A DNA stretch of 64,000 bases. It comes from Escherichia coli. Its GTDB lineage: Bacteria; Pseudomonadota; Gammaproteobacteria; Enterobacterales; Enterobacteriaceae. The DNA lies in assembly GCF_003019035.1 (NCBI RefSeq), contig NZ_CP027447.1. The stretch is one strand, 5' to 3'. Shown piece by piece: positions 35,416 through 54,781 of this stretch; the stretch's first letter is position 1, and every line of letters starts with the position of its first letter. Position numbers and translations under genes: made by a program. The notes under the pieces were generated by a model that was not told where the DNA came from, did not search any database, and saw only the letters and a program-made list of their open reading frames with translations.

Positions 35416-36769
35416 TTATTTTTCGGCCGTGGTACCGGTTGCCGCCTCTGGCATGACGTTATTCTTCAGCAGCAGCCAGCGGCTTAACACGCCTTCGAGT
35501 CGCTCATTAATTTGTTTTTCCAGCGCATCTGTATTCTGCTTCTGCGCACGGGCATCCTGGTACTGCGTCAACAGAGACTCAACGGGTGTTTCCTGCCCCA
35601 GTCCCCGCTCCGCCTGCCAGATGACATTTTTGATATAGGAAAGGGTTAGTCCCTCTTTCTCGCGCTGCATCACTAGATCTGCAAAAGCATGTAAGTCCTG
35701 GCGGGTCTGCAACCAGCCACGCAACTGCGGGCTACTCTGTGCGCGGGTTTTGAGTGCCTCATTCCATTGTGTCGAGGCCTGTTGCTGTTGCAGGCTTTCC
35801 GGCCAGCGACTGTCGGCAACACGCATCATCTGCATCCCGGTTTCCAGCGGCTGTACCGGGGAGGTATCAAGAAGTTGTTGCAGCCTGCGCTCATAGTTTT
35901 CGAGTTCAGGTGAGGCCATCCACACCGTTGCTGCGCCCTGAGCGGTGTCGTTAACCTGTAACAGTTGCTGCTGCACCGGATAGACCTGCCACCACCACAA
36001 TGCTGAGGCGACAGCCACTGAACAGGCGATCCCTGCGATAAACCCTCTTACCATACTGCCTTGCTTTATCACACTGGCCTGTGGGGGATTCTCTGTCAGA
36101 CTGCGCACTTCCACTTTCATCTCAGGCAGGCCAGGCAGGGGAGGCACTACCGCTTCTGGTGTGGAAGATGCCTGTGTTTCCGGGGCATAAATCAGCGTTC
36201 TGACCGTGGTCTGTGCGGCGTTCTCAGTGTTACTCTTCAGCTGGGGTTCAAGCCGTTTACGCGTGTTCTGCATAAAATAGAGCAGATTCTCCACGCGCGG
36301 AACGCGCTTCAGTTCCACCTGCTGGAGCTTATCGCAGATAAGCTGCAATGCCCGCTCTGTGCGGTAGATCAGTGGTAGGTCGGATTCCGCAAAGGAGATT
36401 TGCTGACGCAGAATATTGCCGGTTCGGGAGTTAAACCAGTCCAGCATTTCAGTACGCGCCGGGCCGCCCTGCGGCCAGAACTTATCCCAGTCGTGGCTTA
36501 CCATTGCCGCCAGCAGTTCCGCACCTTCGCAGAATCCCGCCAGTCCCTGTGTCCGTGTCCGGGCAAGCGTATAGTAGGTGGCGGTGTGTAAATCCACACC
36601 GTTGGCTTTAAAAATCGCCAGCGCCAGCGACTCCACCAGTTTCCAGTTCAGCTCAGGCTGTGACGGGTGGCTGGCTTTGTTTATTTCCTCGCGGATGGCG
36701 CTGAATTCCGGCAGCCCGCGCGGGTCACTGCCGGTAACGATAGTTTGTGTCAGTACGTTACTATTCATC
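35416..36769 (-). CDS. T6SS-associated ImpA_N-domain membrane protein (VasL/TagA-like)
   Basis: ORF 35416-36858; likely start MNSNVLTQ at 36769 behind a GGAGG RBS; N-terminal TssA-like region (DPRGLPEFSAIREEINKASHPSQPELNWKLV...) plus one TM segment (GFIAGIACSVAVASALWWW); last gene of a V. cholerae-like cluster order. Confidence 0.7.
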
Positions 36770-36778
36770 CCTGCCTCC

Positions 36779-39700
36779 TCAGTACAGTGTGTCTGACAGA
36801 CCAAACTGGCTGAACAACCCACCGCTGAACGGGTTATCTTCCGTGTCGGTATGCACACGGTAGGTCATCGCGCCACCGTCCACGCTAAAGCGCACGGTAA
36901 AGTTGCCATCCTGTACTCCGGTCAGTTGTCCGGCCCCGAACAGGCGGAACTGCGCCCACGGCCCGCTGAAGCTGATACTGCGCGGCGCGTTGCCGCTGGT
37001 GCCGATGAGCGTCAGCTTACTTTCGTTGCCTTCGCGCATGTTGTTAGGCCAGACCAGATGGGCGGTATAGTTACGGCCCTGGCTGTAATCGACTAACTGA
37101 CCGTCAAGGTTCAGTACACTGCGGCGTTTATTGCCTGAAAGCGATACCGTTTCCACGGCAAAGGATGTTCCCAGACCGTTCTGTTTGCTGAAGAAGATGT
37201 CACGGATTTTCTGCGCAGTTTCCAGTTGCGCAATAATATCTTCGCGAATAATGACGTTGTTATCGCCGTCTTCCAGGCTCAGATCATTGTCGATAAACAG
37301 TTTCAGGTTCTGCTGGTAGAAGGTATCCAGTATGCCATCCGGTTTAAAGAATCGTTCGAAGGCATCCAGTGAGGCATCCTGTGCAGAACGTGGATTAAAC
37401 GGATAGTTATTTGCCAGTTGCTCGTTAAACGGTTTCACCACGCTGTCGCGCCAGTCCACTTCCATATAGTGAACGGCTTCCACCATCACCACATGCCAGG
37501 CCTGGTCAGCCAGCCTGCCTACCCAGCGGTTGAGCGGAGCAGGCAGTGTTTTTGCCATCTGGCGGGTGGCGAATATTGGATCGCTGCTGTTCTGATCAAG
37601 CCTTAACTGCACGGCTTTCAGCGCCGATTTCCCTGGTACAGGCGCGTTCTGGATTGCCAGCAGGTAGCGGTGTAACTCGGTGAGCTGCTGGTATACGGCC
37701 TGCATCGTGCTTTCTTTGTCTTTCTGTACTGTCAGGGTACTGTTTTCCGGGGCGAATTCATGCCCGAGGCGGGTAAGTAACTGGTAATCCGGCTCTGCCA
37801 GGGCCTCATCCCGCTCTTTGGCAGAGAGTTTTTCAGAAAAGACTCCTGGCTGTGTGTTGTCACGCAGCACGGTCAGCGCCCGCTGCAAAGGCTGGTCGCC
37901 GCTGATAACCTGCTCCAGAGTGCCAGTCAGTTGTCCAATGGACTCAAAATTGCGGATATTGAGATTGTCCATCCCGGCCCGCCAGGTGGCGGTGTAGTCG
38001 CTGATATACTGCTCGGTCAACTGGCGCTGAATTTCCGCGCGGTCGGCGTCACTGTATTTCACGCTGCGGGTGAGGTTGAGTACCCAGGAATCCATCGCCG
38101 TCAGTTCAACCAGTTCATCGCGCTGTTTTACAAAATAGCTTTGCAGGCCGTAACGGGTAAGAAACTGTGGAACAACCAGTTTGTTATCATCGGCAGATGT
38201 AAACACCTGGTCAAAGGTTGGCCCTACCTGGTCACGCAGATTGAGGTCAGCAGGAAGAACGCCCAGCGCCCGCGTTTTCAGGCTCTGATAAACCCGCTGG
38301 TAGACAGGCAGTTTGCTCAGTTCTTTCTGTGCTGATACCACGGGCTTGTCATATGGCGTCCAGCGGCTGATGGCATCACCGTCGCCCGCCTGACGCTCTG
38401 CATGCCAGTCAGTATGAGCCAGCGCGTAGTCAAGATGGGACATCAGTTGTGTCTGGATATCGCGCTGTCCGTGGAACTTTTCGCTCCAGCGTTTTGCCAT
38501 ATACTGCTTCACCACCTCATTGTTACGTCCGCTTTTGTCCTCCAGCATTCGCATCACGCGCAGCACCGCGAGTTTTTCTTCACTCTCCGGCGGCGCGGCA
38601 TTCATCGCTTTGACCAGCCCGTTAAACAGCGAGGGCAGGTAACGCTGCTCCAGAAGTTGCAGATAGGTCTGTTCCACATATGGCCCGATACGTCTCCCCT
38701 GGTACAGGCCCATATCGGCCAGACGGCTGCGCTCGCCCCAGTCGCCATAGGCCAGTGTTGCATCGCGTACCGGGTTCAGCAGTGGCAGTTGCAGGTTGCC
38801 AAAGTCATCTTCCCCCTGCGGAGGCGGCACGTCCATAAAGGCTTTGGCCTGCTTAAGCACGGTGATGCCGGACTGATAGTTACCGTTGTAATAGTGATGC
38901 CAGCCGGTGATGAGCAGCAGTGCCGCCACGCCGCCTGTGGCAGAGAAAACCGTCAGGCGGCGACGGGAACGCATCAGCCAGGCGCTGCTCTCTGTTGCCA
39001 GATTAGGCTCTGCGAGTAATGCCTGCGGGAACAGGCTGCGGGTGAAATAAGGCGCGGTGTCCACCAGAGGCCAGGACGCCAGTGGGTTATTGCCCAGTCG
39101 GTACTGGCGGGCAGCAGACTGGGTGAATATATCATCCATCTGTCCACGCTGAAGCGAAGAGGTGAGATAGACACCACGCAGCATCACGTTCATATTTTCG
39201 CCGTCAAGCAGACCCTCAAGCAGTGACACCAGCGGCTCACGGCTTCCCTGCATCTGGCGGGAAAAACTGAATAAAGACGCGCGGGTGTGAGTCTGGGTGA
39301 CCATCAGATCCGGCAACGCCAGATTCATTCGATCCACCCATGTCTGCCAGAAAGCATTCAACTCTGTTCGCCAGTCATCATTTTCATGAGCACGGCGGGT
39401 GAACGTAACACCCAGAATCGCATCGCGATCCTGTCTGTTCAGTGACTGAAACAGGGCGGCAAAACCCTGCAATAAATCAAGCCGGGTCAGTACCACGTAA
39501 ACCGGTAACTGGCAATGAAGATGCTGGCGTATATCCTGTAAGCGGCTGCGCAGCGTCTGTAACAGATGCTCGCGGCGGCGTTTGTCTGCGGTCAGCAGAT
39601 CGGGTAAATCGAGTGTCAGAATAATCCCGTTCAGCGGCTGGCGCGCGCGCTTTTCCTTCAGCCAGCCGAGGGCATGTTCCCACAGACGGCGATGCAGGAT

Positions 39701-40303
39701 ATCCGCATCAGCGGGAGCGCAGAGTGTGCCGTCGATATCAAAGATCACCGCCTGTTTACCGACATGGGGCGTGAGGTACAGGCGTTGTTCTGCGCCGCGC
39801 GCGCCCTCCGGGGCATAAATAATGTCTGACGGAAACCCCTCGCGCAGCAGTGTCGTTTTGCCACTGCCCACAGGACCGATGACCATATACCACGGCAACT
39901 GCCACAGGAAACGGCGGTTGTCGAGATGGCGTTGCAGGCGCAGCAGCCAGCGGTCGAGGTAACGCTGCTGGGCGTTCAGTTCCACACTGAGCGCATCAAC
40001 GGCTTCCTCGCGCTGTTGCTTTTGCATTTTTTCAAGCTGTTGCAGGCGCTTCATTACCCGGACGGTAAGCCACACCAGGGCAATAATCCCCCACGCCGCC
40101 GTTGCCAGCCAGCGGTTCGCCAGTGGTTTGAGCCACTGCTCTTCATACAGCGTCCATGTCGGGCCTTTCCACCAGATCCATACCAGCAGGAAAATCCACG
40201 CCAGTATCAGCAGCCAGAATGCAGAAACTTTAAACCGGGGCATCGCCGGGCGCAGGGCTGATTTGAGTTCGCTGAATAGTCGGGGTGTTGGTAATCTGAA
40301 CAC
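36779..40303 (-). CDS. tssM: T6SS membrane-complex protein TssM (IcmF)
   Basis: 1174-aa ORF, N-terminal TM segments, Walker A GPVGSGKTT. Confidence 0.93.
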   Translation of the reverse strand: MFRLPTPRLFSELKSALRPAMPRFKVSAFWLLILAWIFLLVWIWWKGPTWTLYEEQWLKPLANRWLATAAWGIIALVWLTVRVMKRLQQLEKMQKQQREEAVDALSVELNAQQRYLDRWLLRLQRHLDNRRFLWQLPWYMVIGPVGSGKTTLLREGFPSDIIYAPEGARGAEQRLYLTPHVGKQAVIFDIDGTLCAPADADILHRRLWEHALGWLKEKRARQPLNGIILTLDLPDLLTADKRRREHLLQTLRSRLQDIRQHLHCQLPVYVVLTRLDLLQGFAALFQSLNRQDRDAILGVTFTRRAHENDDWRTELNAFWQTWVDRMNLALPDLMVTQTHTRASLFSFSRQMQGSREPLVSLLEGLLDGENMNVMLRGVYLTSSLQRGQMDDIFTQSAARQYRLGNNPLASWPLVDTAPYFTRSLFPQALLAEPNLATESSAWLMRSRRRLTVFSATGGVAALLLITGWHHYYNGNYQSGITVLKQAKAFMDVPPPQGEDDFGNLQLPLLNPVRDATLAYGDWGERSRLADMGLYQGRRIGPYVEQTYLQLLEQRYLPSLFNGLVKAMNAAPPESEEKLAVLRVMRMLEDKSGRNNEVVKQYMAKRWSEKFHGQRDIQTQLMSHLDYALAHTDWHAERQAGDGDAISRWTPYDKPVVSAQKELSKLPVYQRVYQSLKTRALGVLPADLNLRDQVGPTFDQVFTSADDNKLVVPQFLTRYGLQSYFVKQRDELVELTAMDSWVLNLTRSVKYSDADRAEIQRQLTEQYISDYTATWRAGMDNLNIRNFESIGQLTGTLEQVISGDQPLQRALTVLRDNTQPGVFSEKLSAKERDEALAEPDYQLLTRLGHEFAPENSTLTVQKDKESTMQAVYQQLTELHRYLLAIQNAPVPGKSALKAVQLRLDQNSSDPIFATRQMAKTLPAPLNRWVGRLADQAWHVVMVEAVHYMEVDWRDSVVKPFNEQLANNYPFNPRSAQDASLDAFERFFKPDGILDTFYQQNLKLFIDNDLSLEDGDNNVIIREDIIAQLETAQKIRDIFFSKQNGLGTSFAVETVSLSGNKRRSVLNLDGQLVDYSQGRNYTAHLVWPNNMREGNESKLTLIGTSGNAPRSISFSGPWAQFRLFGAGQLTGVQDGNFTVRFSVDGGAMTYRVHTDTEDNPFSGGLFSQFGLSDTLY

Positions 40304-40321: not shown

Positions 40322-41737
40322 TTATTGTTCTGCCGTGAATTTTTGTTCTAGCTGCTCAAGCAGGGACGGCTCCCAGTCTGCCACCATCATCTGCAATCCC
40401 ATCCTGAACAACATCCGGTACTGTTGCTGCGCAAGCTGTATCAGCCCCGCCTCCTCCGTCAACTGTGCGGCAAGGTACTGGCGGTGAAACTGATCGCGGG
40501 GTTCACCGGCGGGCAACGTATCCAGATACCGTAAGGCGGCTTCCAGCCCCTGTTCATCAAAACACAACCGCGCAGCCTGAATATCTTCATTACTCACCTG
40601 TATGACTGGCGCGGCCTGGTTACCTGGCTGAGTTGCAAGCCATTGCTTCGTTTTTTCAGAAACAAACGGTGTGTGGTCGTTAAACAGAAGATCGGCAAGA
40701 GCGGGCAGACGGCCAAGGAAGGAAACGACTTCATCGCGGATGGCATCGGCCACGGCGGTATAGCCAAGACGGTGCGCCGTCTGTGCAGAAATGCAGTGAC
40801 CGTCCAGCCAGTAGGGTGCCAGCAATACGCTTTTTTCCACCTGCTGCCACAGCGCCATATCGGCACTACCGAGCTGAGCATGGTAATCCGCCACCATATC
40901 GGCAGAGACCGCAGCCAGTGGGGTACGTCCATCGCTTTCCGCCTGGGGCGTACTGGTGATGGATTGCCACAGGGCATGGCGGCGGAGGCGATAGCCCAGC
41001 GGCGAGTCCGGCTGGCGTTCACATAAAATAGCCGCCACTTTTAACAGCGTGTCGCGCCAGGCTTTGTCGTCGTGACTGTCGATGGCGATCTGTAGAGCCG
41101 GAGCACTGGTTTGCGTCATGCTGCTTTCAGACGTGACGGTGGTTTGTGGTGAACTACCGGAGGCCGCCGGAGTGGGGACCGGAGCAGGAGCCGCACGATT
41201 AAACGTACGCTGGTACAGGGCAAAAAGATCATCGGTAGCCTGTGCCAGTTCCGGGACGTTATGTGACTGCCAGCACTGTGCCAGTTTCGCCAGTTCACCT
41301 AATAGCGCATCGCGCTGCGCTGTGGCGGCGTTCTGTGAAAAGCCTTCAATACCTGTTTCAAAGCGTTTAATGACCTGGCTGGCGAAGCGTTTTTTATGTG
41401 CCATATTCTGCGGCGCGGCCACCGCCCAGTAATGTTCCACATACAGTGCCAGCAGGCGCAAGGCCAGAAGCGGATCACCGGCATGTTGCAGGGTTCTCAG
41501 CAGATGCGCCAGCAGACGAAAATCCTTACTCTCCGAAGCCAGAATGACCAGCCCCCGGCGCTGGAGTTCCGGGATATCCAGTTGGCTGTGGGCCAGTGAA
41601 CCCAGTTTGACGATTTCGCCGTCGATATACTCCCAGTCCGGGTTGTCATCTTTTAGCGCCGATGCCTGTTTTTCTTCAGGCAGGTTTTCCAGCAGGTGCG
41701 ATATCCAGACATTCGGATCGCGTAAGTCCATTGCCAT
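40322..41737 (-). CDS. tssA: T6SS baseplate/cap protein TssA
   Basis: ORF 40322-41803; probable start MAMDLRDPNVW at 41737; ImpA_N-type N-terminal domain. Confidence 0.85.
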   Translation of the reverse strand: MAMDLRDPNVWISHLLENLPEEKQASALKDDNPDWEYIDGEIVKLGSLAHSQLDIPELQRRGLVILASESKDFRLLAHLLRTLQHAGDPLLALRLLALYVEHYWAVAAPQNMAHKKRFASQVIKRFETGIEGFSQNAATAQRDALLGELAKLAQCWQSHNVPELAQATDDLFALYQRTFNRAAPAPVPTPAASGSSPQTTVTSESSMTQTSAPALQIAIDSHDDKAWRDTLLKVAAILCERQPDSPLGYRLRRHALWQSITSTPQAESDGRTPLAAVSADMVADYHAQLGSADMALWQQVEKSVLLAPYWLDGHCISAQTAHRLGYTAVADAIRDEVVSFLGRLPALADLLFNDHTPFVSEKTKQWLATQPGNQAAPVIQVSNEDIQAARLCFDEQGLEAALRYLDTLPAGEPRDQFHRQYLAAQLTEEAGLIQLAQQQYRMLFRMGLQMMVADWEPSLLEQLEQKFTAEQ

Positions 41738-41741: not shown

Positions 41742-42485
41742 TTATTCTCCCGCCCAGTGGCAGGCGTCGCGTAGCGGCGCAATAACCCGTGCCAGCCCGT
41801 CAATGTTAAAGGTCAGCTTTCCGGCTGCGTTGTCTGCGCCGGTATCCACCGTCAGCGTTGTTGCGCCGAACAGTTGCTTAATTTCATCAATCCCGGACAG
41901 CCCCCGGCTGGACTCCAGCAGGGTGCCGTTCTCGCGCACAAACCAGTGGCTGCGCAATACCCGGCTGTCGGCATTCAGGGTGACGGCGATATCATGGACA
42001 TCCAGAGGGTGCACCAGCGCCACCTGCATCCGGGTGATATTGTCCACACAGCTGAACATCAGCACCGGGCGAGGCGGAACATGGCCGATAGCCGGGGTGG
42101 TTACCACCACCGTCGGGCGTTCCCCCGGCACCTGCGTCACCAGCAGCTCTGTGGTGTTGCCCTGGCGACGTTTTTCCTGCTCTATGGCACGGGTCCAGGC
42201 TTCGCCCACAAAACTGGCTTTGACCAGCGCCCCGTCAAACCCTGACGGGGACAGCGGTTCCAGCAGGCGGTCATAGCAGTCAAGCCGCTCCAGCGCCGCG
42301 AACTCCCGCCGACAGGACTGCATGGCCTGTAATGTGGCTGTCGCATCCGGCGGGGTCGCTGTGGCGACGGCTACCGCCACACCGGCCATTGACGATGTTT
42401 CTGCGGGCGCGGCACTGGCGGGTAAGCCCGCCATCAGGCCCGCAATAAACCATCCTGTCTGCCGGAAAACGCGCAACCTGCTCAT
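41742..42485 (-). CDS. T6SS-associated secreted/periplasmic protein (VasI-like by position)
   Basis: 247-aa ORF with signal peptide (…LMAGLPASAAPA); sits between clpV and tssA as vasI does in V. cholerae. Confidence 0.5.
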   Translation of the reverse strand: MSRLRVFRQTGWFIAGLMAGLPASAAPAETSSMAGVAVAVATATPPDATATLQAMQSCRREFAALERLDCYDRLLEPLSPSGFDGALVKASFVGEAWTRAIEQEKRRQGNTTELLVTQVPGERPTVVVTTPAIGHVPPRPVLMFSCVDNITRMQVALVHPLDVHDIAVTLNADSRVLRSHWFVRENGTLLESSRGLSGIDEIKQLFGATTLTVDTGADNAAGKLTFNIDGLARVIAPLRDACHWAGE

Positions 42486-47349: not shown

Positions 47350-47874
47350 TTATTCATCCTCTTTTTTCATTTCGATGCTGCTTTGACGTACATGCACCAG
47401 CAGGCGGTAATGGTGGCCGGTTCCTTCCACCGTCTCGATTTGTTTCCATTCAGTGGCCTGGTCATCGGAGAAATAGGCCACGACACCAATAAACTGCGTT
47501 TTCTCATCCAGCTTTACCGGCGGCAGGGTTTTGATGGTGTCCGGCAACAGGTTGAAATCCTGGTGGTCGATATAGTTTTTACCCAGCACATCCGGTAGCG
47601 GCGTACTGGCTATCTGGTCATAGTCGGCTGCCAGCAATTTTGAGTCGTCAGTCAGGTACACCAGTTGCACATCCACGGCGGCTGATTCACCCTCCGCATT
47701 GGTATTGGTGTCCGGTTCGGTCAGCAGGGTGACGGTTATTTCCGAAGGTTGCTCCTTCAGGCTCCCGACCTGGATATCCGGGTTTTTGATCACCTCACTG
47801 ATTTTTTTCGCCGTTTCGCAGCCGGTTAATATGACGCACATCAGCACGCAGGCCAGAAACGCCTTCCTGTTCAT
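47350..47874 (-). CDS. tssJ: T6SS outer-membrane lipoprotein TssJ
   Basis: 174-aa ORF with lipobox ILTGCE; position between tagH and tssK. Confidence 0.85.
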   Translation of the reverse strand: MNRKAFLACVLMCVILTGCETAKKISEVIKNPDIQVGSLKEQPSEITVTLLTEPDTNTNAEGESAAVDVQLVYLTDDSKLLAADYDQIASTPLPDVLGKNYIDHQDFNLLPDTIKTLPPVKLDEKTQFIGVVAYFSDDQATEWKQIETVEGTGHHYRLLVHVRQSSIEMKKEDE

Positions 47875-49172
47875 GCTTCCGGCTCCCGCTGTTTTTCACG
47901 AAGCACCCGGTCATAGACCTGGGCGTAGACCTCGTTAAACAGCATCTCAAACCCCTGCTGGCGATCGGAGGCCAGCTCTTCGTAATAATGGCTGTACATT
48001 TGCCATGCTCCGGCATCATCCAGCGGCTGGCGCAGTTCATGGCTGCGGCGGTACTGCACAAAGCGGCGCAGCAGATTTTGTGGTGAGAAGGCGTCCAGCA
48101 GGACACGAAGCGACTCCACAATCGCCGCCCGGTTAGCTTCTTCGTGGTGGCGGACATTGCGCAGGCTTTCACTGACAGCGGCGGGAGCCGCCAGATGTAC
48201 CGGACTTTTACCTTCGGCAAACATCACGTCGAGCGCGGTGGCGTAATCCATGTTCAGGCGCAGCGGGTTATCTTCCAGCGGGCGCAAATGTTTGTCTGAG
48301 AGGCTGTTACGCTGCTGCTGCAAATCAAGCAGACCTTTTATTGCGGCCTGTAACGTGCGTCCGGCCTCCTCCAGAAAATCATCCGCATCGTCGGAATTGC
48401 TCACGGTAAGCGAGCCGCCAAGACCGCGCAGTAAGGGGGTGACCGCAAGGTGGCGTTGCGCCATTTCTGCCACAGAGACGTCATCATTACGCTCGCCGGG
48501 GCTGGCATAAATGGGCGGCAGATCCATAAACGGCGTATTGATCCCCCCATTACTTGCCGGATCGGACAGCGGTGCCGATGGCCGGACAGCCGCAATGCCT
48601 GAAAGCGGATCGCCCGCGGTAATCAGGCTTTCGGACTGAAGTGCCTGGAGTGGATCGGCAGAAAAACCGTTTACCACGGTGTCTGCAAGCTGATGCCGGT
48701 GAGTCATTCCCGGATAGTGTGGCGCACCCTCCGTTGACAGCAGGGTATCCGTGAGCATATCGCGATTGGTGACGATGGTTTCGGGAGTGGCCATTTCCTC
48801 ATCGTAATGGGGGATATCTCCCCGGTTCAGATGAACCCTCACCATCAGACGCCCTATCTGGATCTCATCGCCCTGGCGCAGCTGTATCAGGTCTGATGTT
48901 GCTGTGACTTTTGCCTGGTTCAGCCACAGTTGTGCCGTCTGCGGGCGCAGACAAAATGTGCCATCGTGCAGGATAACGGTAAAGGCCTGAGCCGGAATGC
49001 TCTGCTGACGATCCTGTACCGACCAGTGGCATTCGGGGCCATGGCCGACATTTCCCTGCTGCGTGAACAGACAGCGCGCCGCCCGCCCGCTTTCCAGCTC
49101 ACTGCCGTTAATGACCTGCAATGAAAGCGTCTGTAGTTTCTCTTCCGGCATATTCTGCTCCGTGATTATCAT
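47871..49172 (-). CDS. tagH: T6SS FHA-domain protein TagH (Fha)
   Basis: 433-aa ORF with N-terminal FHA domain; ATGA overlap with tssJ. Confidence 0.85.
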   Translation of the reverse strand: MIITEQNMPEEKLQTLSLQVINGSELESGRAARCLFTQQGNVGHGPECHWSVQDRQQSIPAQAFTVILHDGTFCLRPQTAQLWLNQAKVTATSDLIQLRQGDEIQIGRLMVRVHLNRGDIPHYDEEMATPETIVTNRDMLTDTLLSTEGAPHYPGMTHRHQLADTVVNGFSADPLQALQSESLITAGDPLSGIAAVRPSAPLSDPASNGGINTPFMDLPPIYASPGERNDDVSVAEMAQRHLAVTPLLRGLGGSLTVSNSDDADDFLEEAGRTLQAAIKGLLDLQQQRNSLSDKHLRPLEDNPLRLNMDYATALDVMFAEGKSPVHLAAPAAVSESLRNVRHHEEANRAAIVESLRVLLDAFSPQNLLRRFVQYRRSHELRQPLDDAGAWQMYSHYYEELASDRQQGFEMLFNEVYAQVYDRVLREKQREPEA

Positions 49173-49175: not shown

Positions 49176-50264
49176 TTACGACCGTACCCTGATGGTGACT
49201 GAGGGTCGTTCTTCCGGTGTGCCGAGGAAGCTGGTCCAGCCCAGCAGCGCACTTTTGTTATCGCCCAGGCGCATTGCGCCCACCTGCTCCGGTGCCAGCC
49301 CCAGATGTAAGTCCCAGGCAAGCTGATCGCGCAGGATGAAGGACACAAACATCGTCAGTGGCAGGAAGTTTTCGCCGGACGGCAGAAAAGAGAGGAGCTG
49401 TTTTCGGGTCAGGCTGGTAATACTGAGCTGGAATTTTCCGCTGAGATCGGGCACCCGTGTACCCAGAACAAAGTTGCCCAGTACCGATCTTCCGGCCAGT
49501 TTTTCGCCATTTTTAAGGGAATAGCTCCCCAGGCTGTTTTGCTGATCCGGTTCAATATCCACCTTGCGACGTTGCCAGTTTTGCAGCGTCACGTCTGACA
49601 AGTCAAAACAGTGTGACACCAGGCCGCAGATGATTTCCGGGGATCGTCCCGGATTTGCCAGGATCCCGGAATACGCCAGCATTTTGCTGTGATTAATCGC
49701 CAGCTTATCGCGAAGCTGGCGGTGGCCCAGCCCGACAAGGGAGTACATGCGCTGCGAGAACGCATCCACACCGCCGTTACGAAAACTGATGTGATAGCGG
49801 TACTTACGCCAGATATGCCAGACAAACTGGGTCAGGCGGTGGCTGAACATATCCAGAAAATCGCCTACCGGACTTTGTTCATGTACCGCTTTCCAGGCCA
49901 GGTGATCCAGGTAATAACCGGGGAGAGGCGACTGGCTCCCCTGTAACCCCATAAAGGTGGTGGTCATCCTGAATGCCCCTGACGTATCCCGTTTCAGCCC
50001 ACTGATATCACTGCACGGGAAGGCAAGGCTGGCATCGGCGCTGAAACGCAGGGTTTCCTGTGCCGGATCATCGCGCAGGGATAATTCCGGTGTCCCCTTT
50101 TCACCCTGTGCCAGGCGGTGCAACAGCTCCGCCATCGCAAAAAAATTGTAAGAGCAGGCGTTATGGAAAACCTGTGCCAGCGGATCATTCTGCTCTTTAT
50201 CTGCCGGGGGATGTCCCGGACTCAGATAAGAGGATGCTGCCCGGTTCTTTCCGTCCATTTCCAT
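49176..50264 (-). CDS. tssG: T6SS baseplate protein TssG
   Basis: 362-aa ORF directly downstream of tssF; start may be internal (43-nt overlap with tssF as drawn). Confidence 0.85.
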   Translation of the reverse strand: MEMDGKNRAASSYLSPGHPPADKEQNDPLAQVFHNACSYNFFAMAELLHRLAQGEKGTPELSLRDDPAQETLRFSADASLAFPCSDISGLKRDTSGAFRMTTTFMGLQGSQSPLPGYYLDHLAWKAVHEQSPVGDFLDMFSHRLTQFVWHIWRKYRYHISFRNGGVDAFSQRMYSLVGLGHRQLRDKLAINHSKMLAYSGILANPGRSPEIICGLVSHCFDLSDVTLQNWQRRKVDIEPDQQNSLGSYSLKNGEKLAGRSVLGNFVLGTRVPDLSGKFQLSITSLTRKQLLSFLPSGENFLPLTMFVSFILRDQLAWDLHLGLAPEQVGAMRLGDNKSALLGWTSFLGTPEERPSVTIRVRS

Positions 50265-52072
50265 GTCTCCTGGCTTTCTGTGTTCACAACGGTCAGCATG
50301 TGGAATGAGTTAACGCTGGCGTACAGCGACAGAAAATGCGAAAGCACCGTACCGAGCAGATACATTTCCCCTTCACAGACAAACGGCTCCGGGTGCAGAT
50401 ACAGCGTGGAGGCCAGCCCCCGGACGGGAATGCCCGTAAACAGGCGATCGACAGGGCGGGTCTCCAGACGCTCAATGGCATCCAGCTTTTGTTGTGACAG
50501 CCGCGCCGTCTGCGGATGATGGATTGCGTGGCGATCAAAGTTGGCGATGACCTGCTTCAGCGCGTCCGTATCTAGTAATGACAGATAATTCAGGTTCATG
50601 GCGGAGAGCAGGGACCAGTGCAGGCTGCCATCAATGACCGGCCAGAGCGGTTGCGTCGGGCGGGTAATGTTGCGAAATGAAGCAACAGCCGCATTTTTAC
50701 CGGTTGTGCCGGTGATATCGCCGGAACGAATTTGTGACGGAAGCTCACGGTTGGTACAGGTCAGCGATACCGAAACCACTTCATTACTGAGCAGCGATTC
50801 GTCTGACGGATAACTGCCATCAGCATGTATAAAAGCAAGGGTATGATCAAAGCCGCGATGGAACAGGGATGTTTTGGTCCGGTGATGCCAGTACACCACT
50901 TCCCGCTTCCGGCTGTATTCCATCTGATGGCTGAAACTTTCAAAGGCAGGCCACTGGCGCGCGGCCTGCGTCGAAACAGGACGCCCCAGATCTTTTTTCC
51001 TGAACATATCCTGCACCTGGCTCACCACGCCGTTAACGGAAAAGACATCGTAATGTTCCGGATAGTGGCGGCTGGGAACCAGCGGATAGTCTGCCCGCCG
51101 GTTGTCCAGCGTGATGGCTTCTGCATGGTGGATAAATAAATTAATGGCAGGTGCGCAATACAGGCGCAGAGAATCGCGGCGCAGCCGGATGTCCACGGGC
51201 AATGGGCGCGAAAAACGCAGTTGCAGGGTAAAGGATTCAGCCTGCAATCCGTCAGGCAACGCCGGGCAACCACAAAGATCAAAAAAGAGAAACGCATCCG
51301 GGTAACAGAAATACTCCTGAAGGATCCGGTAGCCGCTGTGGACGTTTTTCGGCCAGGGCAGCATGGCATCCTGCGGCTCAAAACCGACAGCTTTCAGCAT
51401 AAACTCAGGCAGGCGAATATGCTGTTCACCCACAGTCAGGTCGGCACCCTGCAAGTATTCACAGAACCATAAATAAAGCTGGTCACGGGTATAGTTGTCG
51501 TCATTGCCGAGCCAGAAGCGAAGTTTGTTCAGATCCAGCGTGCGGAAGTCCGTTCCCGGTGCGACCGAAAAGGTGATGTTGATAACACCATTACGGGTCG
51601 TACTGCGGTTTTCAATCTGCTCCAGGCGAACGGGCAGCAGCCAGATATCCCGGCAGAGGGTGAAGGTACAGGGAGGCGGCTCCTCCTTTTTAGCATCGGA
51701 GGGCAGCACTTCATCGACTCTAATTTCCCCGGCGTTGGTTGTAAACTGCTCATTACGGGGGATTAACACCGGCACAGAAGACTTATCCATATCCGGCGTA
51801 TATTCAATAAGGGTCATTGCCGGAACCGGACGCAGGTAATTAGGCCACAGCATCTTAATAAGCCCGTGCGTCAGTTCTGGGAATTCATCCTCAATTTTCT
51901 GGCGGAGATTGCCGGTAAGAAAAGCCACGCCTTCCAGCAGGCGTTCAATATCCGGATCCGCATCTTTTTCGGCCAGGAAGCGGGCCAGATGGGGTTTTTC
52001 CGTTGCCAGCAGCTTGCTGAGCTGGCGCAGGTAATCGAGTTCTTCCCGGAAATAGCGTTCTTCAAATTCCAT
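50222..52072 (-). CDS. tssF: T6SS baseplate protein TssF
   Basis: 616-aa ORF MEFEERYFREELDYLRQLSKLLATEKPHLARFL... Confidence 0.88.
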   Translation of the reverse strand: MEFEERYFREELDYLRQLSKLLATEKPHLARFLAEKDADPDIERLLEGVAFLTGNLRQKIEDEFPELTHGLIKMLWPNYLRPVPAMTLIEYTPDMDKSSVPVLIPRNEQFTTNAGEIRVDEVLPSDAKKEEPPPCTFTLCRDIWLLPVRLEQIENRSTTRNGVINITFSVAPGTDFRTLDLNKLRFWLGNDDNYTRDQLYLWFCEYLQGADLTVGEQHIRLPEFMLKAVGFEPQDAMLPWPKNVHSGYRILQEYFCYPDAFLFFDLCGCPALPDGLQAESFTLQLRFSRPLPVDIRLRRDSLRLYCAPAINLFIHHAEAITLDNRRADYPLVPSRHYPEHYDVFSVNGVVSQVQDMFRKKDLGRPVSTQAARQWPAFESFSHQMEYSRKREVVYWHHRTKTSLFHRGFDHTLAFIHADGSYPSDESLLSNEVVSVSLTCTNRELPSQIRSGDITGTTGKNAAVASFRNITRPTQPLWPVIDGSLHWSLLSAMNLNYLSLLDTDALKQVIANFDRHAIHHPQTARLSQQKLDAIERLETRPVDRLFTGIPVRGLASTLYLHPEPFVCEGEMYLLGTVLSHFLSLYASVNSFHMLTVVNTESQETWKWTERTGQHPLI

Positions 52073-52075: not shown

Positions 52076-52489
52076 TCAGTCCACCCGGTAATGCTGGCTG
52101 CCATTCGGTGCCATATCAAATTCAAGCACTTCATGCGTTTCGTTAAATGTCACCCAGGCTGTAATATGAAACGTCATATCCAGCGGGCTGGCGGCGGATG
52201 AAACCACAGCCTGCACTTCAGCGTGTGAGATCCGGGGTTCATAGCGTTCTATACATTGCGCGATGGCCCGACTCATTGATTGGCGGAAGTTTTCAGCCCC
52301 TTCCGGTTCATCAATGCCCAGTTCAGGCGCACCCCGGCAACTACCGGACCGGGTATTAAGAATGTTTCGCAGGTTCTGGCGAATGGACTGCCTGAGCGCA
52401 TGAATACTGCTTCCCTGCCGGTTTCTGGCCGGTGAGGCTTCCATACGCTCAAAAAGAGAACCTGTGGTTCTTTCCCGATCCGGTATCAT
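52076..52489 (-). CDS. tssE: T6SS baseplate protein TssE (gp25-like)
   Basis: 137-aa ORF between tssC and tssF. Confidence 0.85.
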   Translation of the reverse strand: MIPDRERTTGSLFERMEASPARNRQGSSIHALRQSIRQNLRNILNTRSGSCRGAPELGIDEPEGAENFRQSMSRAIAQCIERYEPRISHAEVQAVVSSAASPLDMTFHITAWVTFNETHEVLEFDMAPNGSQHYRVD

Positions 52490-52495
52490 GGCGTG

Positions 52496-53971
52496 TTACT
52501 CCCTGTCTAACCGGCCAACCAGGGAAAGCTCAAAGTTTGCCCCCATAAATTTAAAATGGGGCCGCACGCTCAGCGCGACCTGGTACCAGCCGGGTTCGCC
52601 TTCCACATCCATAACCTCAACTTTGGCAGCGCGCAGAGGTTTACGGCTGCGCACGTCCGCAGGCGGGTTTTCCTGGTCGGCAACATACTGACGGATCCAG
52701 GTATTAAGCTCTCTTTCTAAGTCGCTCCTTTCTTTCCATGACCCCAGTTGTTCACGCTGCAACACCTTGATGTAGTGCGCTAACCGGTTGATGATGAAGA
52801 GATAAGGAAGCTGCGTACCCAGCTTATAGTTGGTTTCTGCGTCTTTGCCCGGAAAGTGCTTCGGTTTTTGTACCGAGTTTGCAGAGAAAAAGGCTGCATT
52901 ATCAGAGTCTTTACGCATGGTAAGGGTGATAAAACCCTCTTCAGCCAGTTCAAATTCGCGGCGATCGGTGACCAGCACCTCGGTTGGGATTTTGGCCTGA
53001 ATCTGACCCATCGTTTCGAACAGATGCACCGGCAGATCTTTCACTGCGCCGCCGCTTTGCGGACCGATGATATTTGGACACCAGCGGTATTTGGCAAAAC
53101 TGTCTGCGACATTGCACGCCAGCATCCAGGCCGTATTACCCCACAGATAATCTTCGTGGTTCCGGCTGACATCTTCGTGATAGTTAAAGTTCTTAACAGG
53201 GTTATCTGTTGGTGAATAAGGCTGGCGAAGCAGGAAGCGGGGTGCCGTAAGCCCTAAATAGCGCGAATCTTCCGAGTCACGCAGGGCGCGCCATTTGGTG
53301 TAGGCCGGACCTTCAAAGATGGCATAAAGATCTTTGATATTAGGCAGTTCGGTCCACGAGTTCAGCCCCATAAATTCCGGGGAAACGGAGGACAGGAACG
53401 GTGCGTGCGCCATTGCGCCCACGGCACTGACGTATTGCAGCAGTTTCATGTCAGGCGCGGTATTTTTGAACTCATAAGCGCCCAGCACGGCAGCGATGGG
53501 TTCACCGCCAAACTGTCCGAAACCGGACGAATAAACGTGCTTATAAAATCCGGACTGAATAATTTCTGGCGCAAACTCAAAGTCTTCCAGAAGTTCCTGC
53601 TTGGTGACATGAAGCACGTTGACCTTGATGTTTTCACGGAAATCAACGCGATCCACCATTGTTTTCAGTGAGCGCCAGAACGACTCGACCTGCTGAAAGG
53701 CAGGCGCATGGATGATGACATCCATCTGGCGGCTGATGCGTTCATCAATATCTGCAATCATGCTGTCCACGGCCAGTTTATTGACCGGTTCGGCAGATGC
53801 AGTGGATTGCAGGATGCTGGCAATAAAGGCTGTCACACCCTGGCGGGCAACGTCATAACCTTCCGAACCGGGCTGAATACGGGTCTGTGCCATGATTTGA
53901 TCAAGCAGCGACGATGCCTGCTCAGGCTGCCCGGCATGACTGGAAACGAGTTCCTCTTCCTGTAAAGACAT
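52496..53971 (-). CDS. tssC: T6SS contractile sheath large subunit TssC (VipB)
   Basis: 491-aa ORF with conserved TssC core. Confidence 0.93.
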   Translation of the reverse strand: MSLQEEELVSSHAGQPEQASSLLDQIMAQTRIQPGSEGYDVARQGVTAFIASILQSTASAEPVNKLAVDSMIADIDERISRQMDVIIHAPAFQQVESFWRSLKTMVDRVDFRENIKVNVLHVTKQELLEDFEFAPEIIQSGFYKHVYSSGFGQFGGEPIAAVLGAYEFKNTAPDMKLLQYVSAVGAMAHAPFLSSVSPEFMGLNSWTELPNIKDLYAIFEGPAYTKWRALRDSEDSRYLGLTAPRFLLRQPYSPTDNPVKNFNYHEDVSRNHEDYLWGNTAWMLACNVADSFAKYRWCPNIIGPQSGGAVKDLPVHLFETMGQIQAKIPTEVLVTDRREFELAEEGFITLTMRKDSDNAAFFSANSVQKPKHFPGKDAETNYKLGTQLPYLFIINRLAHYIKVLQREQLGSWKERSDLERELNTWIRQYVADQENPPADVRSRKPLRAAKVEVMDVEGEPGWYQVALSVRPHFKFMGANFELSLVGRLDRE

Positions 53972-54021
53972 ACTGAAAATCCTTCTGTTTTAGCTGTGTT
54001 TCTGAAACCGGCTTTTCGCCA

Positions 54022-54246
54022 TCAGTGAAGTACGCGCTGCCAGTGCGACGCGCTCTGCTGAAACTCACAAAAATGGATAATCTCATCCAATAGATCACTG
54101 ATACGGCGATCCAGTGTTGTAATCAGCGCAGCCACACCATCCTGGTTGATTTCAACGGACGGGCTGAAACATACCTGGTAAACCACCTGCAGAATGTCTG
54201 CAACAGAGAGGTGGTATGTCCCGGAGATATTTTTGTGTGCCGTCAT
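54022..54246 (-). other. Short ORF (74 aa) resembling the N-terminal segment of TssC; possible gene fragment
   Basis: ...VAALITTLDRRISDLLDEIIHFCEFQQSASHWQRVL aligns by eye (about 40% identity) with TssC residues ...VDSMIADIDERISRQMDVIIHAPAFQQVESFWRSL. Confidence 0.3.
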
Positions 54247-54280
54247 GCCTGGATAACCCTGTTTAATGAAATAGTGGTGG

Positions 54281-54781
54281 TTATTTATTGCTCACCCGGC
54301 CGATTTCTTTGAGCAACTGCTCGCGGGACTCCTCATTTTCCAACAATGCCTGGAGCTGGGTACGGAATGCCGGAAGGTTACCCATCGGCCCCTTCAGTGC
54401 AGTCAGTGCTTCACGCAGTTCCAGCAATTTATTCACTTCCGGAACCTGCCGGGCCACGCTATCTGGTGAAAAATCATCCAGTGATTTGATATTCAGCGCC
54501 ACATTCAGTTCATCGTCTGTTGTGCTTCCCTTCAGCGTGGCGGGGACAGTAAAATTGAGGCCAATGGCTGCTTCAGCCATCACTGCACCGAAATTGTGCT
54601 TGTTAACGGAAACTGCCTGACGTTCATCCAGTGGGGATGTTTCCTGCGTATTTCCGGTATCGCCGACAACGAGCATGTTAAGCGGAAGTTCCACTTCAGC
54701 CGTCTGGCCATCTGTTTTTGGGACATACGATATATTAATACGCTCGCGAGGCGCGACGCTGCCTTCAAATTTTTTGCTCAT
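54281..54781 (-). CDS. tssB: T6SS contractile sheath small subunit TssB (VipA)
   Basis: 166-aa ORF MSKKFEGSVAPRERINISYVPKTDGQTAEVELPLNMLVVGD... Confidence 0.9.
   Translation of the reverse strand: MSKKFEGSVAPRERINISYVPKTDGQTAEVELPLNMLVVGDTGNTQETSPLDERQAVSVNKHNFGAVMAEAAIGLNFTVPATLKGSTTDDELNVALNIKSLDDFSPDSVARQVPEVNKLLELREALTALKGPMGNLPAFRTQLQALLENEESREQLLKEIGRVSNK

What the first reader, a model, noticed from the sequence alone, without database searches (positions are those of the whole stretch)
35416..54781. Vibrio cholerae-like T6SS gene order without the vasH sigma-54 activator
The minus-strand order tssB, tssC, tssE, tssF, tssG, FHA, tssJ, tssK, tssL, clpV, vasI-like, tssA, tssM, vasL-like matches the V. 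cholerae vipA-vasL cluster gene for gene, except that no sigma-54 enhancer-binding protein lies between clpV and the vasI-like gene (clpV stop and vasI-like start overlap). No Ser/Thr kinase or phosphatase partner for the FHA protein and no peptidoglycan-binding TagL/TssL extension is seen either. Regulation and cell-wall anchoring must therefore work differently from the textbook systems.
Basis: partly seen in the sequence, partly recalled or inferred. Interest (0 to 1): 0.5.

Follow-up and report, generated by a model that had tools for sequence, protein, structure and literature searches.

The report
E. coli T6SS-2 cluster, no vasH
This is the well-known second type VI secretion gene cluster of Escherichia coli, next to the aspV tRNA gene; it does lack the VasH activator found in Vibrio cholerae, but so does its whole clade of relatives, so the finding is correct but ordinary.

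Summary
Window 35416-54781 (minus strand) encodes tssB, tssC, tssE, tssF, tssG, tagH (FHA), tssJ, tssK, tssL, clpV, vasI, tssA, tssM and a VasL/TagA-like gene. The clpV stop and vasI start overlap in ATGA. No sigma-54 activator, Hanks kinase, PP2C phosphatase or OmpA-like domain was found in the window.

It is not new. The window is E. coli chromosome, and the cluster is the aspV island known as T6SS-2 (T6SS-i1). At least 80% of it is present in 2029 of 5426 complete E. coli genomes. It is 92.6% identical to the O157:H7 Sakai locus. The cluster at the same aspV locus in O157:H7 EDL933 was shown to be functional and H-NS-repressed.

Two of the three "missing" features, the kinase/phosphatase pair and the peptidoglycan-binding domain, are also missing in V. 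cholerae according to published reviews. Only the loss of vasH separates the two systems.

In 80 related loci the clpV-vasI junction has three states. Two loci carry a full sigma-54 activator. Thirty-two carry a conserved ~265-aa VasH that lacks its AAA+ core (Yersinia, Proteus, Photorhabdus and others). Forty-six, including E. coli, carry nothing. The E. coli clade is sister to a short-VasH group, which suggests stepwise loss. The TagH FHA domain also lacks the canonical phosphothreonine-binding Arg.

Interest is low.

The parts
32137..32213 (+). tRNA-Asp (aspV), the insertion site of the island
   Evidence: ARAGORN. The annotations of SCU-301 and Sakai agree.
32541..33326 (+). 261-aa hypothetical gene, at the position where Sakai annotates the lipoprotein gene yafT; low-GC island edge
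   Evidence: ORF list. Cluster names are 'hypothetical' or 'putative aminopeptidase'. Sakai annotates yafT, a lipoprotein gene, at the same position. No Pfam or NCBIfam family was found.
33463..33942 (-). ykfM, function unknown, downstream of hcp
   Evidence: Annotation and cluster names. No family hits.
33952..34866 (-). 304-aa YafU-like hypothetical membrane protein, downstream of hcp. Possibly effector or immunity cargo (inference).
   Evidence: Annotation. The name 'Inner membrane protein yafU' appears. No family hits.
34910..35392 (-). hcp (tssD), first copy, last gene of the minus-strand operon
   Evidence: TIGR03344, E 3e-60.
35416..36768 (-). VasL/TagA-like protein (ImpA_N + VasL domains). 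The open frame extends to 36858.
   Evidence: Pfam ImpA_N 3e-19 and VasL 7e-23. RefSeq calls it a 'VasL domain-containing protein'.
36779..40303 (-). tssM (IcmF). The annotated start is about 40213.
   Evidence: TIGR03348, E 7e-284, covering residues 32-1170 of 1174.
40322..41737 (-). tssA (VasJ)
   Evidence: TIGR03362, E 1e-149. Pfam T6SS_VasJ and ImpA_N.
41742..42485 (-). vasI (tagO). Predicted periplasmic protein with four invariant Cys. Its start overlaps the clpV stop.
   Evidence: TIGR03360, E 1e-75. Invariant C58, C70, C146 and C242. ATGA overlap read directly.
42482..45241 (-). clpV (tssH), 919 aa, intact here
   Evidence: TIGR03345, E 0. SCU-301 is one base shorter across the cluster and annotates tssH as frameshifted.
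45250..46011 (-). tssL (DotU), short form with no peptidoglycan-binding extension
   Evidence: Pfam DotU covers residues 33-234 of 253 and nothing else matches. TIGR03349.
46016..47347 (-). tssK
   Evidence: TIGR03353, E 6e-136.
47350..47874 (-). tssJ lipoprotein
   Evidence: TIGR03352, E 4e-39.
47871..49172 (-). tagH, an FHA-domain protein whose FHA domain is divergent (GR replaced by GH; the SxxH His and the NG Asn are not kept)
   Evidence: TIGR03354, E 1e-101. Pfam FHA only E 5e-4, T6SS_FHA_C 3e-41. Alignments to Rad53 FHA1 and to 70 TagH relatives.
49176..50264 (-). tssG
   Evidence: TIGR03347, E 5e-104.
50222..52072 (-). tssF
   Evidence: TIGR03359, E 5e-168.
52076..52489 (-). tssE
   Evidence: TIGR03357, E 6e-34.
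52496..53971 (-). tssC (sheath large subunit)
   Evidence: TIGR03355, E 2e-211.
54022..54246 (-). 74-aa ORF between tssB and tssC, a diverged copy of TssC residues 50-102
   Evidence: BLASTP gives 34% identity, E 2e-8. Weak Pfam VipB hit, E 3e-3. Annotated as hypothetical in SCU-301 and as ECs_0232 in Sakai. The exact sequence is recorded on at least 1000 contigs.
54281..54781 (-). tssB (sheath small subunit), first gene of the minus-strand operon
   Evidence: TIGR03358, E 1e-50.
54782..55477 (.). Divergent AT-rich control region between tssB and hcp. Likely H-NS target with sigma-70-type promoters (inference).
   Evidence: GC is 23-32% at 54900-55400, against about 55% in the cluster. No sigma-54 -24/-12 match. 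Only weak sigma-70-like matches, no more than chance.
55478..55996 (+). hcp (tssD), second copy, first gene of the plus-strand operon
   Evidence: TIGR03344, E 2e-61.
56206..58314 (+). vgrG (tssI)
   Evidence: TIGR03361, E 4e-188.
58381..62598 (+). PAAR-Rhs effector gene, interrupted by one in-frame stop at 61987-61989. The C-terminal toxin part resumes in the same frame.
   Evidence: NF041261 RHS_core matches positions 1-1202 of 1261. Translation reads ...HHVYQS*RLPGQQ.... The N-terminus reads [11 protein letters not shown].
62574..63005 (+). 143-aa gene after the Rhs C-terminus, possibly an immunity lipoprotein (inference)
   Evidence: ORF containing an LLCGCS lipobox-like motif. Weak DUF hits only.

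Best explanation
This is the Escherichia coli T6SS-2 gene cluster (phylogenetic subclass T6SS-i1, the same subclass as the V. cholerae VAS cluster), inserted at the aspV tRNA-Asp gene.

Shown. It encodes a complete contractile secretion machine: all 13 core Tss proteins, plus TagH, VasI and a TagA/VasL-like protein. Two Hcp genes, VgrG and a PAAR-Rhs effector flank it. Its lineage has lost the cluster-encoded sigma-54 activator VasH. Sister clusters keep a VasH that has lost its AAA+ core, and the E. coli clade has lost the gene entirely.

Inferred.
- Transcription starts from ordinary sigma-70-type promoters in the very AT-rich divergent tssB/hcp intergenic region. Host global regulators control it, chiefly H-NS silencing, as was shown for the cluster at the same aspV locus in EHEC EDL933.
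- TagH acts as a phosphorylation-independent scaffold, because its FHA domain lacks the canonical phosphothreonine-binding arginine and no kinase or phosphatase is present.
- As in V. cholerae, the membrane complex works without a dedicated peptidoglycan-binding subunit.
For: Identity of the cluster.
- The window is 99.8% identical to E. coli SCU-301.
- The 19.4-kb query hits 3541 of 5426 complete E. coli genomes, and 2029 of them cover at least 80% of it.
- The annotations of SCU-301 and O157:H7 Sakai show the same order next to aspV.
- The window is 92.6% identical to Sakai over 27 kb.
- The literature equates E. coli T6SS2 with T6SS-i1 (10.1101/2025.01.23.634537).

Completeness. NCBIfam equivalog matches exist for every core gene.

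No vasH, kinase, phosphatase or peptidoglycan-binding domain.

No sigma-54 promoter. There are 40 matches with up to 2 mismatches against 42.9 expected, and none in an intergenic region.

H-NS.
- GC falls to 23-32% in the divergent promoter region.
- The EHEC EDL933 aspV T6SS is poorly expressed in vitro, de-repressed in an hns mutant, and secretes Hcp (PMC5363993).

Loss series for vasH.
- In 80 loci the clpV-vasI junction is empty in 46, holds a 260-269-aa ORF in 32, and holds a 522-545-aa bEBP in 2.
- The short ORF aligns to the N-terminal domain and the C-terminal HTH of VasH, with the AAA+ core missing.
- HMMs built from its two halves find only the full-length bEBPs among 4305 ORF segments.
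- In a bootstrapped neighbour-joining tree of ClpV, the E. coli-type empty clade has 100% support and is sister to a short-VasH group at 94%. All empty loci together are monophyletic in only 1% of replicates.

FHA domain.
- Pfam FHA scores only E 5e-4.
- GR is replaced by GH or GS in the window TagH and in all 70 TagH relatives extracted.
- The aligned His and Asn of Rad53 FHA1 are not kept in E. coli.

V. cholerae lacks PpkA/PppA and a peptidoglycan-binding domain (PMC10482370; PMC8253398).
Against: - The H-NS data come from EHEC EDL933, not this strain, and the allele here differs by about 7% from the O157:H7 (Sakai) sequence I compared.
- No promoter was mapped. The sigma-70-like matches in the intergenic region are no more frequent than chance.
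- Only 64 kb of the genome is visible, so an unlinked regulator, kinase or anchor cannot be excluded.
- The FHA alignment to a solved structure is weak (E 0.08). A His in place of the Arg might retain some phosphate binding.
- The loss series rests on a single-protein NJ tree with only two full-length-VasH outgroups. No V. cholerae or Aeromonas sequence was included.
- The Rhs effector carries an in-frame stop, so activity in this particular strain is uncertain.
Confidence: 0.75

Rival explanations
1. The cluster is still sigma-54 dependent, but it uses an enhancer-binding protein encoded elsewhere in the chromosome, either an orphan vasH or one of the housekeeping bEBPs of E. coli.
For: Only 64 kb of the genome is visible. 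E. coli has RpoN and about a dozen bEBPs (general knowledge). RpoN-dependent T6SS expression without a cluster-encoded bEBP is listed for several species in the regulation review (PMC10482370).
Against: No TGGCAC-N5-TTGCW-like site lies in any intergenic region of the island, and the window-wide count equals the chance expectation. Neither full nor short VasH has any tblastn match in the window. The EHEC study explains silencing by H-NS alone.
Confidence: 0.07
2. In this strain the cluster is a decaying, non-functional relic. Loss of the regulator is part of gene erosion rather than a working alternative design.
For: The PAAR-Rhs effector has an in-frame stop. A tssC fragment sits between tssB and tssC. 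Sakai annotates tssA as a pseudogene. SCU-301 annotates tssH, vgrG and rhs as frameshifted. K-12 keeps only the names ykfM and yafU from this region, according to UniProt and general knowledge.
Against: All 13 core genes and the accessory genes are intact, full-length ORFs in the window, with near-complete model coverage. The vasH-less architecture is conserved across 29 loci of many genera at 100% bootstrap, which argues for long-term maintenance. The cluster at the same aspV locus in EHEC EDL933 secretes Hcp. The SCU-301 frameshifts coincide with 38 indels relative to the window and look like assembly errors.
Confidence: 0.12
3. TagH is still controlled by threonine phosphorylation, through a Ser/Thr kinase and phosphatase encoded outside the island.
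For: An FHA-domain protein is retained and conserved. The regulation review suggests unidentified kinases as a possibility for V. cholerae TagH.
Against: No kinase motif occurs in the window. The canonical Arg of the FHA phosphate pocket is absent in the window TagH and in all 70 TagH relatives extracted, and the His and Asn positions are not kept in E. coli. The Pfam FHA score is marginal, with a weak resemblance to the YscD-type cytoplasmic domain. No phosphorylation of V. cholerae TagH was observed.
Confidence: 0.06

Closest known systems
E. coli T6SS-2 (T6SS-i1) aspV island, as in EHEC O157:H7 EDL933/Sakai (Z0243-Z0275 / ECs_0216-0237), NMEC RS218 and APEC T6SS2
   Same: The insertion site (aspV), gene content and gene order are the same, including the 74-aa ORF between tssB and tssC, two hcp genes, vgrG and Rhs. 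DNA identity to Sakai is 92.6% over 27 kb. There is no vasH, no kinase or phosphatase, and a short TssL.
   Different: The differences are allelic only. The variable genes between aspV and hcp differ (ykfM and a yafU-like gene here, other small ORFs in Sakai). The Rhs C-terminus differs and is interrupted by a stop here. tssA is intact here but a pseudogene in Sakai.
Vibrio cholerae VAS large cluster (vipA-vasL, VCA0107-VCA0121)
   Same: The order tssB-C-E-F-G-tagH-J-K-L-clpV-(vasH)-vasI-tssA-tssM-vasL is the same and the subclass is i1. This rests on general knowledge, and is supported by contig L086, which carries tssJ-K-L-clpV-bEBP-vasI-tssA. Both lack PpkA/PppA and a peptidoglycan-binding domain.
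   Different: There is no vasH between clpV and vasI. An extra tssC-fragment ORF lies between tssB and tssC. hcp, vgrG and PAAR-Rhs are adjacent to the structural genes rather than sitting in auxiliary clusters. No sigma-54 promoter precedes hcp. In V. cholerae the hcp operons depend on VasH and RpoN.
T6SS-i1 clusters of Yersinia, Proteus, Providencia, Morganella, Photorhabdus, Xenorhabdus and some Serratia
   Same: The tssL-clpV-...-vasI-tssA backbone is the same, with VasI 40-55% identical. The TagH FHA domain also has GS in place of GR.
   Different: These clusters keep a conserved 260-269-aa gene between clpV and vasI. It consists of the VasH N-terminal domain plus a Fis-type HTH, without the sigma-54 AAA+ core. 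It is annotated only as 'Fis family transcriptional regulator'. E. coli has no trace of it.
EAEC Sci-1 (E. coli T6SS-1, T6SS-i2)
   Same: It is a complete T6SS in the same species. Regulation is by host factors (Fur/Dam) rather than a cluster-encoded activator. It also has a TagA-type protein.
   Different: Sci-1 belongs to a different subclass with a different gene order. It carries TagL with an OmpA-like peptidoglycan-binding domain. It has no TagH or VasI.

Membership tests
Canonical (class i) type VI secretion system | All 13 core components TssA-TssM are present | tested here: met
   NCBIfam equivalog or subfamily matches above the curated cut-offs for tssA, B, C, D (two copies), E, F, G, H, I, J, K, L and M.
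Canonical (class i) type VI secretion system | A PAAR spike-tip protein | tested here: inconclusive
   The Rhs N-terminus reads [11 protein letters not shown]..., and NF041261 RHS_core matches from residue 1. No separate PAAR Pfam hit could be seen, because the list is truncated.
E. coli T6SS-2 / aspV island | Inserted beside tRNA-Asp aspV, between dnaQ and yafV | tested here: met
   tRNA-Asp lies at 32137-32213. SCU-301 and Sakai both show dnaQ-aspV-island-yafV.
E. coli T6SS-2 / aspV island | High nucleotide identity and the same gene order as the O157:H7 reference cluster | tested here: met
   92.6% identity over 27,149 bases to Sakai, with identical gene order.
T6SS-i1 (V. cholerae-type) subclass | Phylogenetic placement with V. 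cholerae-type clusters | tested here: inconclusive
   The literature states that E. coli T6SS2 equals T6SS-i1. My ClpV tree roots the family on two VasH-bearing loci, Halomonas and an Osedax symbiont. No V. cholerae sequence could be fetched.
T6SS-i1 (V. cholerae-type) subclass | Accessory genes tagH, vasI and vasL/tagA in the VAS order | tested here: met
   TIGR03354, TIGR03360 and Pfam VasL with ImpA_N.
Sigma-54 / enhancer-binding-protein-regulated T6SS (VasH, Sfa2 type) | A bEBP (Sigma54_activat AAA+ with GAFTGA, plus HTH_8) encoded in the cluster | tested here: not met
   clpV and vasI overlap. There is no tblastn hit and no motif in the window, and no Pfam hit.
Sigma-54 / enhancer-binding-protein-regulated T6SS (VasH, Sfa2 type) | -24/-12 (TGGCAC-N5-TTGCW) promoters upstream of T6SS operons | tested here: not met
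   No match with up to 2 mismatches lies in an intergenic region of the island. The window total is 40 against 42.9 expected.
Threonine-phosphorylation-regulated T6SS (PpkA/PppA/Fha) | A Hanks-type kinase and a PP2C phosphatase in the cluster | tested here: not met
   No HRDxKxxN or DFG...APE motif in any of the six frames. No Pkinase or PP2C in the Pfam scans.
Threonine-phosphorylation-regulated T6SS (PpkA/PppA/Fha) | An FHA domain with the canonical pThr-binding residues (Arg, Ser, His, Asn) | tested here: not met
   GR is replaced by GH. The positions aligned to the His and Asn of Rad53 FHA1 are Ala (or Gln) and Ala. Pfam FHA scores only E 5e-4. The structural alignment is weak (E 0.08).
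Peptidoglycan-anchored T6SS (TagL, TagN, TagP or extended TssL) | An OmpA/Pal/MotB-like peptidoglycan-binding domain in TssL or an accessory protein | tested here: not met
   TssL is 253 aa and DotU-only. NF038239 and the long-form TssL models fall below their cut-offs. No such domain appears in any island protein.

The most novel reading that the evidence does not exclude
E. coli T6SS-2 may be the end point of a stepwise dismantling of the VasH regulator within T6SS-i1. Full sigma-54 activators (Vibrio-like, Halomonas) gave rise to an AAA+-less form: an N-terminal sensory domain plus an HTH, about 265 aa. This form is conserved in Yersinia (including Y. pestis), Proteus, Providencia, Morganella, Photorhabdus, Xenorhabdus and others, and presumably acts as a sigma-54-independent DNA-binding regulator. 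The gene was then deleted completely at least twice, once in the E. coli/Citrobacter/Rahnella clade. Alongside this, the family's TagH carries an FHA domain that no longer binds phosphothreonine. If so, the E. coli machine runs with no dedicated transcriptional or post-translational regulator at all. The short VasH appears not to have been described as a VasH derivative in the papers I could search.
Probability: 0.45. Interest if true: 0.4.

Novelty: already known. Interest (0 to 1): 0.15.

Why it matters
For the window itself it matters little. The locus is a common and already studied E. coli island, and the "missing" parts are either shared with V. cholerae or characteristic of the whole enterobacterial clade.

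The comparative by-product has modest value. It shows that vasH was lost in steps within T6SS-i1. It also shows that many pathogens, including Y. pestis, P. mirabilis and Photorhabdus, keep a truncated VasH lacking the sigma-54 ATPase core. That protein is a testable candidate regulator.

The regulation review I read lists regulators for E. coli T6SS-1 and T6SS-3 but none for T6SS-2. How T6SS-2 is switched on beyond relief of H-NS silencing therefore remains an open but narrow question.

Tried and rejected
- Sigma-54 promoter scan (TGGCAC-N5-TTGCW, up to 2 mismatches) over the window. It gave 40 hits against 42.9 expected and none intergenic. The same scan over all related loci was uninformative, because the hcp promoters mostly lie outside the ±8-kb flanks.
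- Fur-box scan (GATAATGATAATCATTATC, up to 3 mismatches). No hits, so there is no support for Fur control of the kind seen in Sci-1.
- Sigma-70 promoter and terminator scan of 53900-55600. Counts did not exceed chance, so no promoter is claimed at a specific position.
- PADLOC search of the unknown island ORFs. Nothing found.
- NCBIfam and Pfam searches of the genes next to hcp (ykfM, the yafU-like gene, the 261-aa ORF). No informative family.
- Bernard et al. 2011 on sigma-54 and T6SS (PMC3133059) is not held in the library.
- A 47-sequence VasI alignment was too diverse for the genome scan. A 13-sequence alignment worked but did not retrieve Vibrio or Aeromonas.
- Looking up distant VasI representatives gave one short contig pair with no context and one useful contig with a full bEBP.
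- I considered whether mltD (LysM lytic transglycosylase, about 3 kb before aspV) is a linked cell-wall factor. I rejected this as a coincidence, because mltD is core-genome DNA outside the island (by general knowledge it is also present in K-12, which has no T6SS).
- I considered whether the SCU-301 'frameshifted tssH' annotation means clpV is broken here. It does not. The window has one extra base and an intact 919-aa frame.

Full report
**What is there.** The stretch 35416-54781 is tightly packed with minus-strand genes. NCBIfam equivalog models match them at E-values from 6e-34 to 0, almost all over nearly their full length. In transcription order they are:
- tssB 54281-54781
- tssC 52496-53971
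- tssE 52076-52489
- tssF 50222-52072
- tssG 49176-50264
- tagH 47871-49172
- tssJ 47350-47874
- tssK 46016-47347
- tssL 45250-46011
- clpV 42482-45241
- vasI 41742-42485
- tssA 40322-41737
- tssM 36779-40303
- a protein with ImpA_N and VasL domains, 35416-36768

The operon continues into an hcp gene (34910-35392). A divergent operon starts at 55478 with a second hcp, then vgrG (56206-58314) and a PAAR-Rhs gene (58381 onward).

**The three absences.**
- The clpV stop and the vasI start share ATGA, so nothing can lie between them.
- Three Pfam scans covering every plausible island protein found only the expected T6SS families.
- TssL is 253 aa with a DotU domain at residues 33-234 and no other domain.
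- The family models cover almost all of each of the other proteins, leaving no room for an extra ~100-aa domain. The exception is the VasL/TagA-like protein, whose Pfam scan is listed in full and shows only ImpA_N and VasL.
- tblastn with two full-length VasH proteins and four short VasH relatives against all 64 kb found nothing (best E 0.087).
- Six-frame motif scans found no GAFTGA, no bEBP Walker A and no Hanks-kinase signature.
- The rest of the window is ordinary E. coli core genome (dnaE ... rrn operon ... dnaQ), with no regulator of these kinds.

The absences are confirmed.

**What it is.**
- The window is 99.8% identical to E. coli SCU-301.
- The 19.4-kb query matches 3541 of 5426 complete E. 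coli genomes, and 2029 of them cover at least 80% of it.
- The island sits directly after tRNA-Asp aspV (32137-32213), between dnaQ and yafV.
- The O157:H7 Sakai chromosome has the same genes in the same order at the same site, including the 74-aa ORF (ECs_0232). It is 92.6% identical over 27 kb.

This is the island called T6SS-2 in the E. coli field, which belongs to subclass T6SS-i1 (10.1101/2025.01.23.634537; PMC6730261). For EHEC EDL933, Wan et al. described the aspV-associated cluster, showed Hcp secretion, and found very low expression in vitro that is relieved in an hns mutant (PMC5363993).

The comparison with "textbook systems" mixes models. V. cholerae and Edwardsiella tarda are the named exceptions that lack a T6SS peptidoglycan-binding domain (PMC8253398). 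Two of the three absences are therefore features of the V. cholerae type itself. Only the absence of vasH is a real difference.

**Is the missing vasH unusual?** I collected 80 VasI-encoding loci from species-representative genomes and located tssL, clpV, vasI and tssA in each. The clpV-vasI junction has three states:
- Forty-six loci have no gene there. These include E. coli, Citrobacter, Buttiauxella, Lelliottia, Rahnella, Trabulsiella, Pasteurellaceae, Gilliamella, Budvicia and Pragia.
- Thirty-two loci have a conserved ORF of 260-269 aa. These include Yersinia (with Y. pestis), several Serratia, Photorhabdus, Xenorhabdus, Proteus, Providencia, Morganella and a second Trabulsiella cluster.
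- Two loci (Halomonas and an Osedax symbiont) have a 522-545-aa protein that matches NorR, NtrC and PspF-type sigma-54 activators at about E 1e-98.

A metagenomic contig with a distant VasI shows tssJ-tssK-tssL(DotU only)-clpV-Sigma54_activat/HTH_8-vasI-tssA.

The short protein has neither GAFTGA nor a Walker A motif. Its N-terminal 150 residues align to the VasH N-terminal domain and its C-terminus to the Fis-type HTH, with the roughly 250-residue AAA+ core simply missing. HMMs built from each half retrieve only the two full-length activators among 4305 ORF segments: E 2.4e-6 and 5.5e-3 for the N-terminal half, 2.5e-10 and 4e-10 for the C-terminal half. Neither HMM hits anything in the window. 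Databases name the short protein only "Fis family transcriptional regulator" or "HTH domain-containing protein".

**Direction of change.** I built a neighbour-joining tree of ClpV rooted on the two VasH-bearing loci, with 100 bootstraps.
- The E. coli-type empty clade (29 loci) has 100% support.
- Its sister relationship to a short-VasH group (Edaphovirga, Enterobacillus, Entomohabitans, Trabulsiella-b) has 94% support.
- All empty loci together are monophyletic in only 1% of replicates.

The simplest reading is full VasH, then AAA+-less VasH, then nothing, with complete loss occurring at least twice. This is an inference from one protein and a distance method, and no Vibrio or Aeromonas sequences were included.

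**Regulation in E. coli.**
- No -24/-12 sigma-54 element is present in any intergenic region of the island, and the window-wide count equals chance.
- No Fur box was found.
- The 696-bp divergent tssB/hcp region drops to 23-32% GC, against about 55% in the genes. That composition is typical of H-NS targets and agrees with the EHEC data.
- Sigma-70-like matches there do not exceed chance, so I do not place a promoter.

I infer sigma-70-type promoters under H-NS silencing, with an unknown counter-silencer or inducing signal. The regulation review lists regulators for E. coli T6SS-1 and T6SS-3 but none for T6SS-2.

**The FHA protein.** TagH matches TIGR03354 strongly, but the Pfam FHA model only at E 5e-4, with a faint resemblance to the YscD cytoplasmic domain. 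The N-terminal region aligns to Rad53 FHA1 only weakly (E 0.08). In that alignment:
- The conserved Gly-Arg becomes Gly-His.
- The His of the SxxH motif becomes Ala.
- The Asn of the NG motif becomes Ala.

Across the window TagH and the 70 TagH relatives extracted from the related loci, the Arg is never present; it is always His or Ser. I infer that this FHA domain is a phospho-independent interaction module, which would explain the lack of a kinase and phosphatase. This fits the report that V. cholerae TagH phosphorylation was not observed.

**Anchoring.** No peptidoglycan-binding domain is present, as in V. cholerae. The TagL paper suggests that such systems may borrow OmpA- or Pal-like proteins encoded elsewhere. 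VasI has a signal-peptide-like N-terminus and four invariant cysteines. It is a periplasmic accessory protein of unknown role. I have no evidence that it binds the cell wall.

**State of this copy.** All core genes are intact. SCU-301's "frameshifted" tssH reflects a one-base difference, and the window has an open 919-aa frame. The Rhs gene has a single in-frame stop just before the conserved DPxGL region (...HHVYQS*RLPGQQ...), so its toxin domain would not be made as a fusion.

**Verdict.** The object is the already known E. coli T6SS-2. Interest in the finding as posed is low. The graded loss of VasH and the AAA+-less VasH in sister clusters are the only mildly new points, and they lie outside the window.

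Noticed in passing
window 54022-54246 (-): A 74-aa ORF lies between tssB and tssC. It is a diverged copy of TssC residues 50-102 (34% identity, E 2e-8; weak Pfam VipB hit). It is conserved in E. coli and Shigella (the exact sequence is on at least 1000 contigs) and annotated as hypothetical (ECs_0232 in Sakai). It may be a relic of a recombination or duplication at the tssC 5' end, or a small sheath-related protein.
   Followed up: partly
L044 7133-7930 (Y. pestis), L064 7121-7909 (P. mirabilis) and 30 further loci (L033-L080): A conserved 260-269-aa gene between clpV and vasI equals VasH without its sigma-54 AAA+ core: the N-terminal domain plus a Fis-type HTH. It is annotated only as 'Fis family transcriptional regulator'. 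It is a candidate sigma-54-independent T6SS regulator in Yersinia, Proteus, Providencia, Morganella, Photorhabdus and Xenorhabdus.
   Followed up: partly
window 61987-61989 (within Rhs 58381-62598, +): A single in-frame stop codon (...HHVYQS*RLPGQQ...) interrupts the PAAR-Rhs effector just before the conserved cleavage region. The C-terminal toxin part continues in the same frame. SCU-301 annotates its copy as frameshifted.
   Followed up: partly
window 47871-49172 (-), residues ~40-110 of TagH: The FHA domain lacks the canonical phosphothreonine-binding Arg (GH instead of GR). The window TagH and all 70 TagH relatives in the related loci have His or Ser at that position.
   Followed up: partly
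window 33463-34866 (-) and 32541-33326 (+): The low-GC (about 38-43%) stretch between aspV and hcp carries ykfM, a 304-aa YafU-like membrane protein and a 261-aa hypothetical gene where Sakai annotates yafT. This stretch differs from the one in O157 Sakai. The names ykfM and yafU come from E. coli K-12, which suggests that K-12 keeps remnants of this island.
   Followed up: no
L083 12971-14382 (O157:H7 Sakai, ECs_0219): tssA is annotated as a pseudogene in the Sakai reference genome, whereas it is intact in the window.
   Followed up: no
window ~11069-11070: Relative to SCU-301, the window lacks an IS621 (IS110-family) insertion between yaeF and nlpE. SCU-301 also differs from the window by 38 small indels, which probably explains its several 'frameshifted' annotations.
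   Followed up: no
window 62574-63005 (+): A 143-aa ORF overlaps the end of the Rhs C-terminal region and has a lipobox-like LLCGCS motif. It is a likely immunity lipoprotein for the Rhs toxin, with only weak DUF hits.
   Followed up: no
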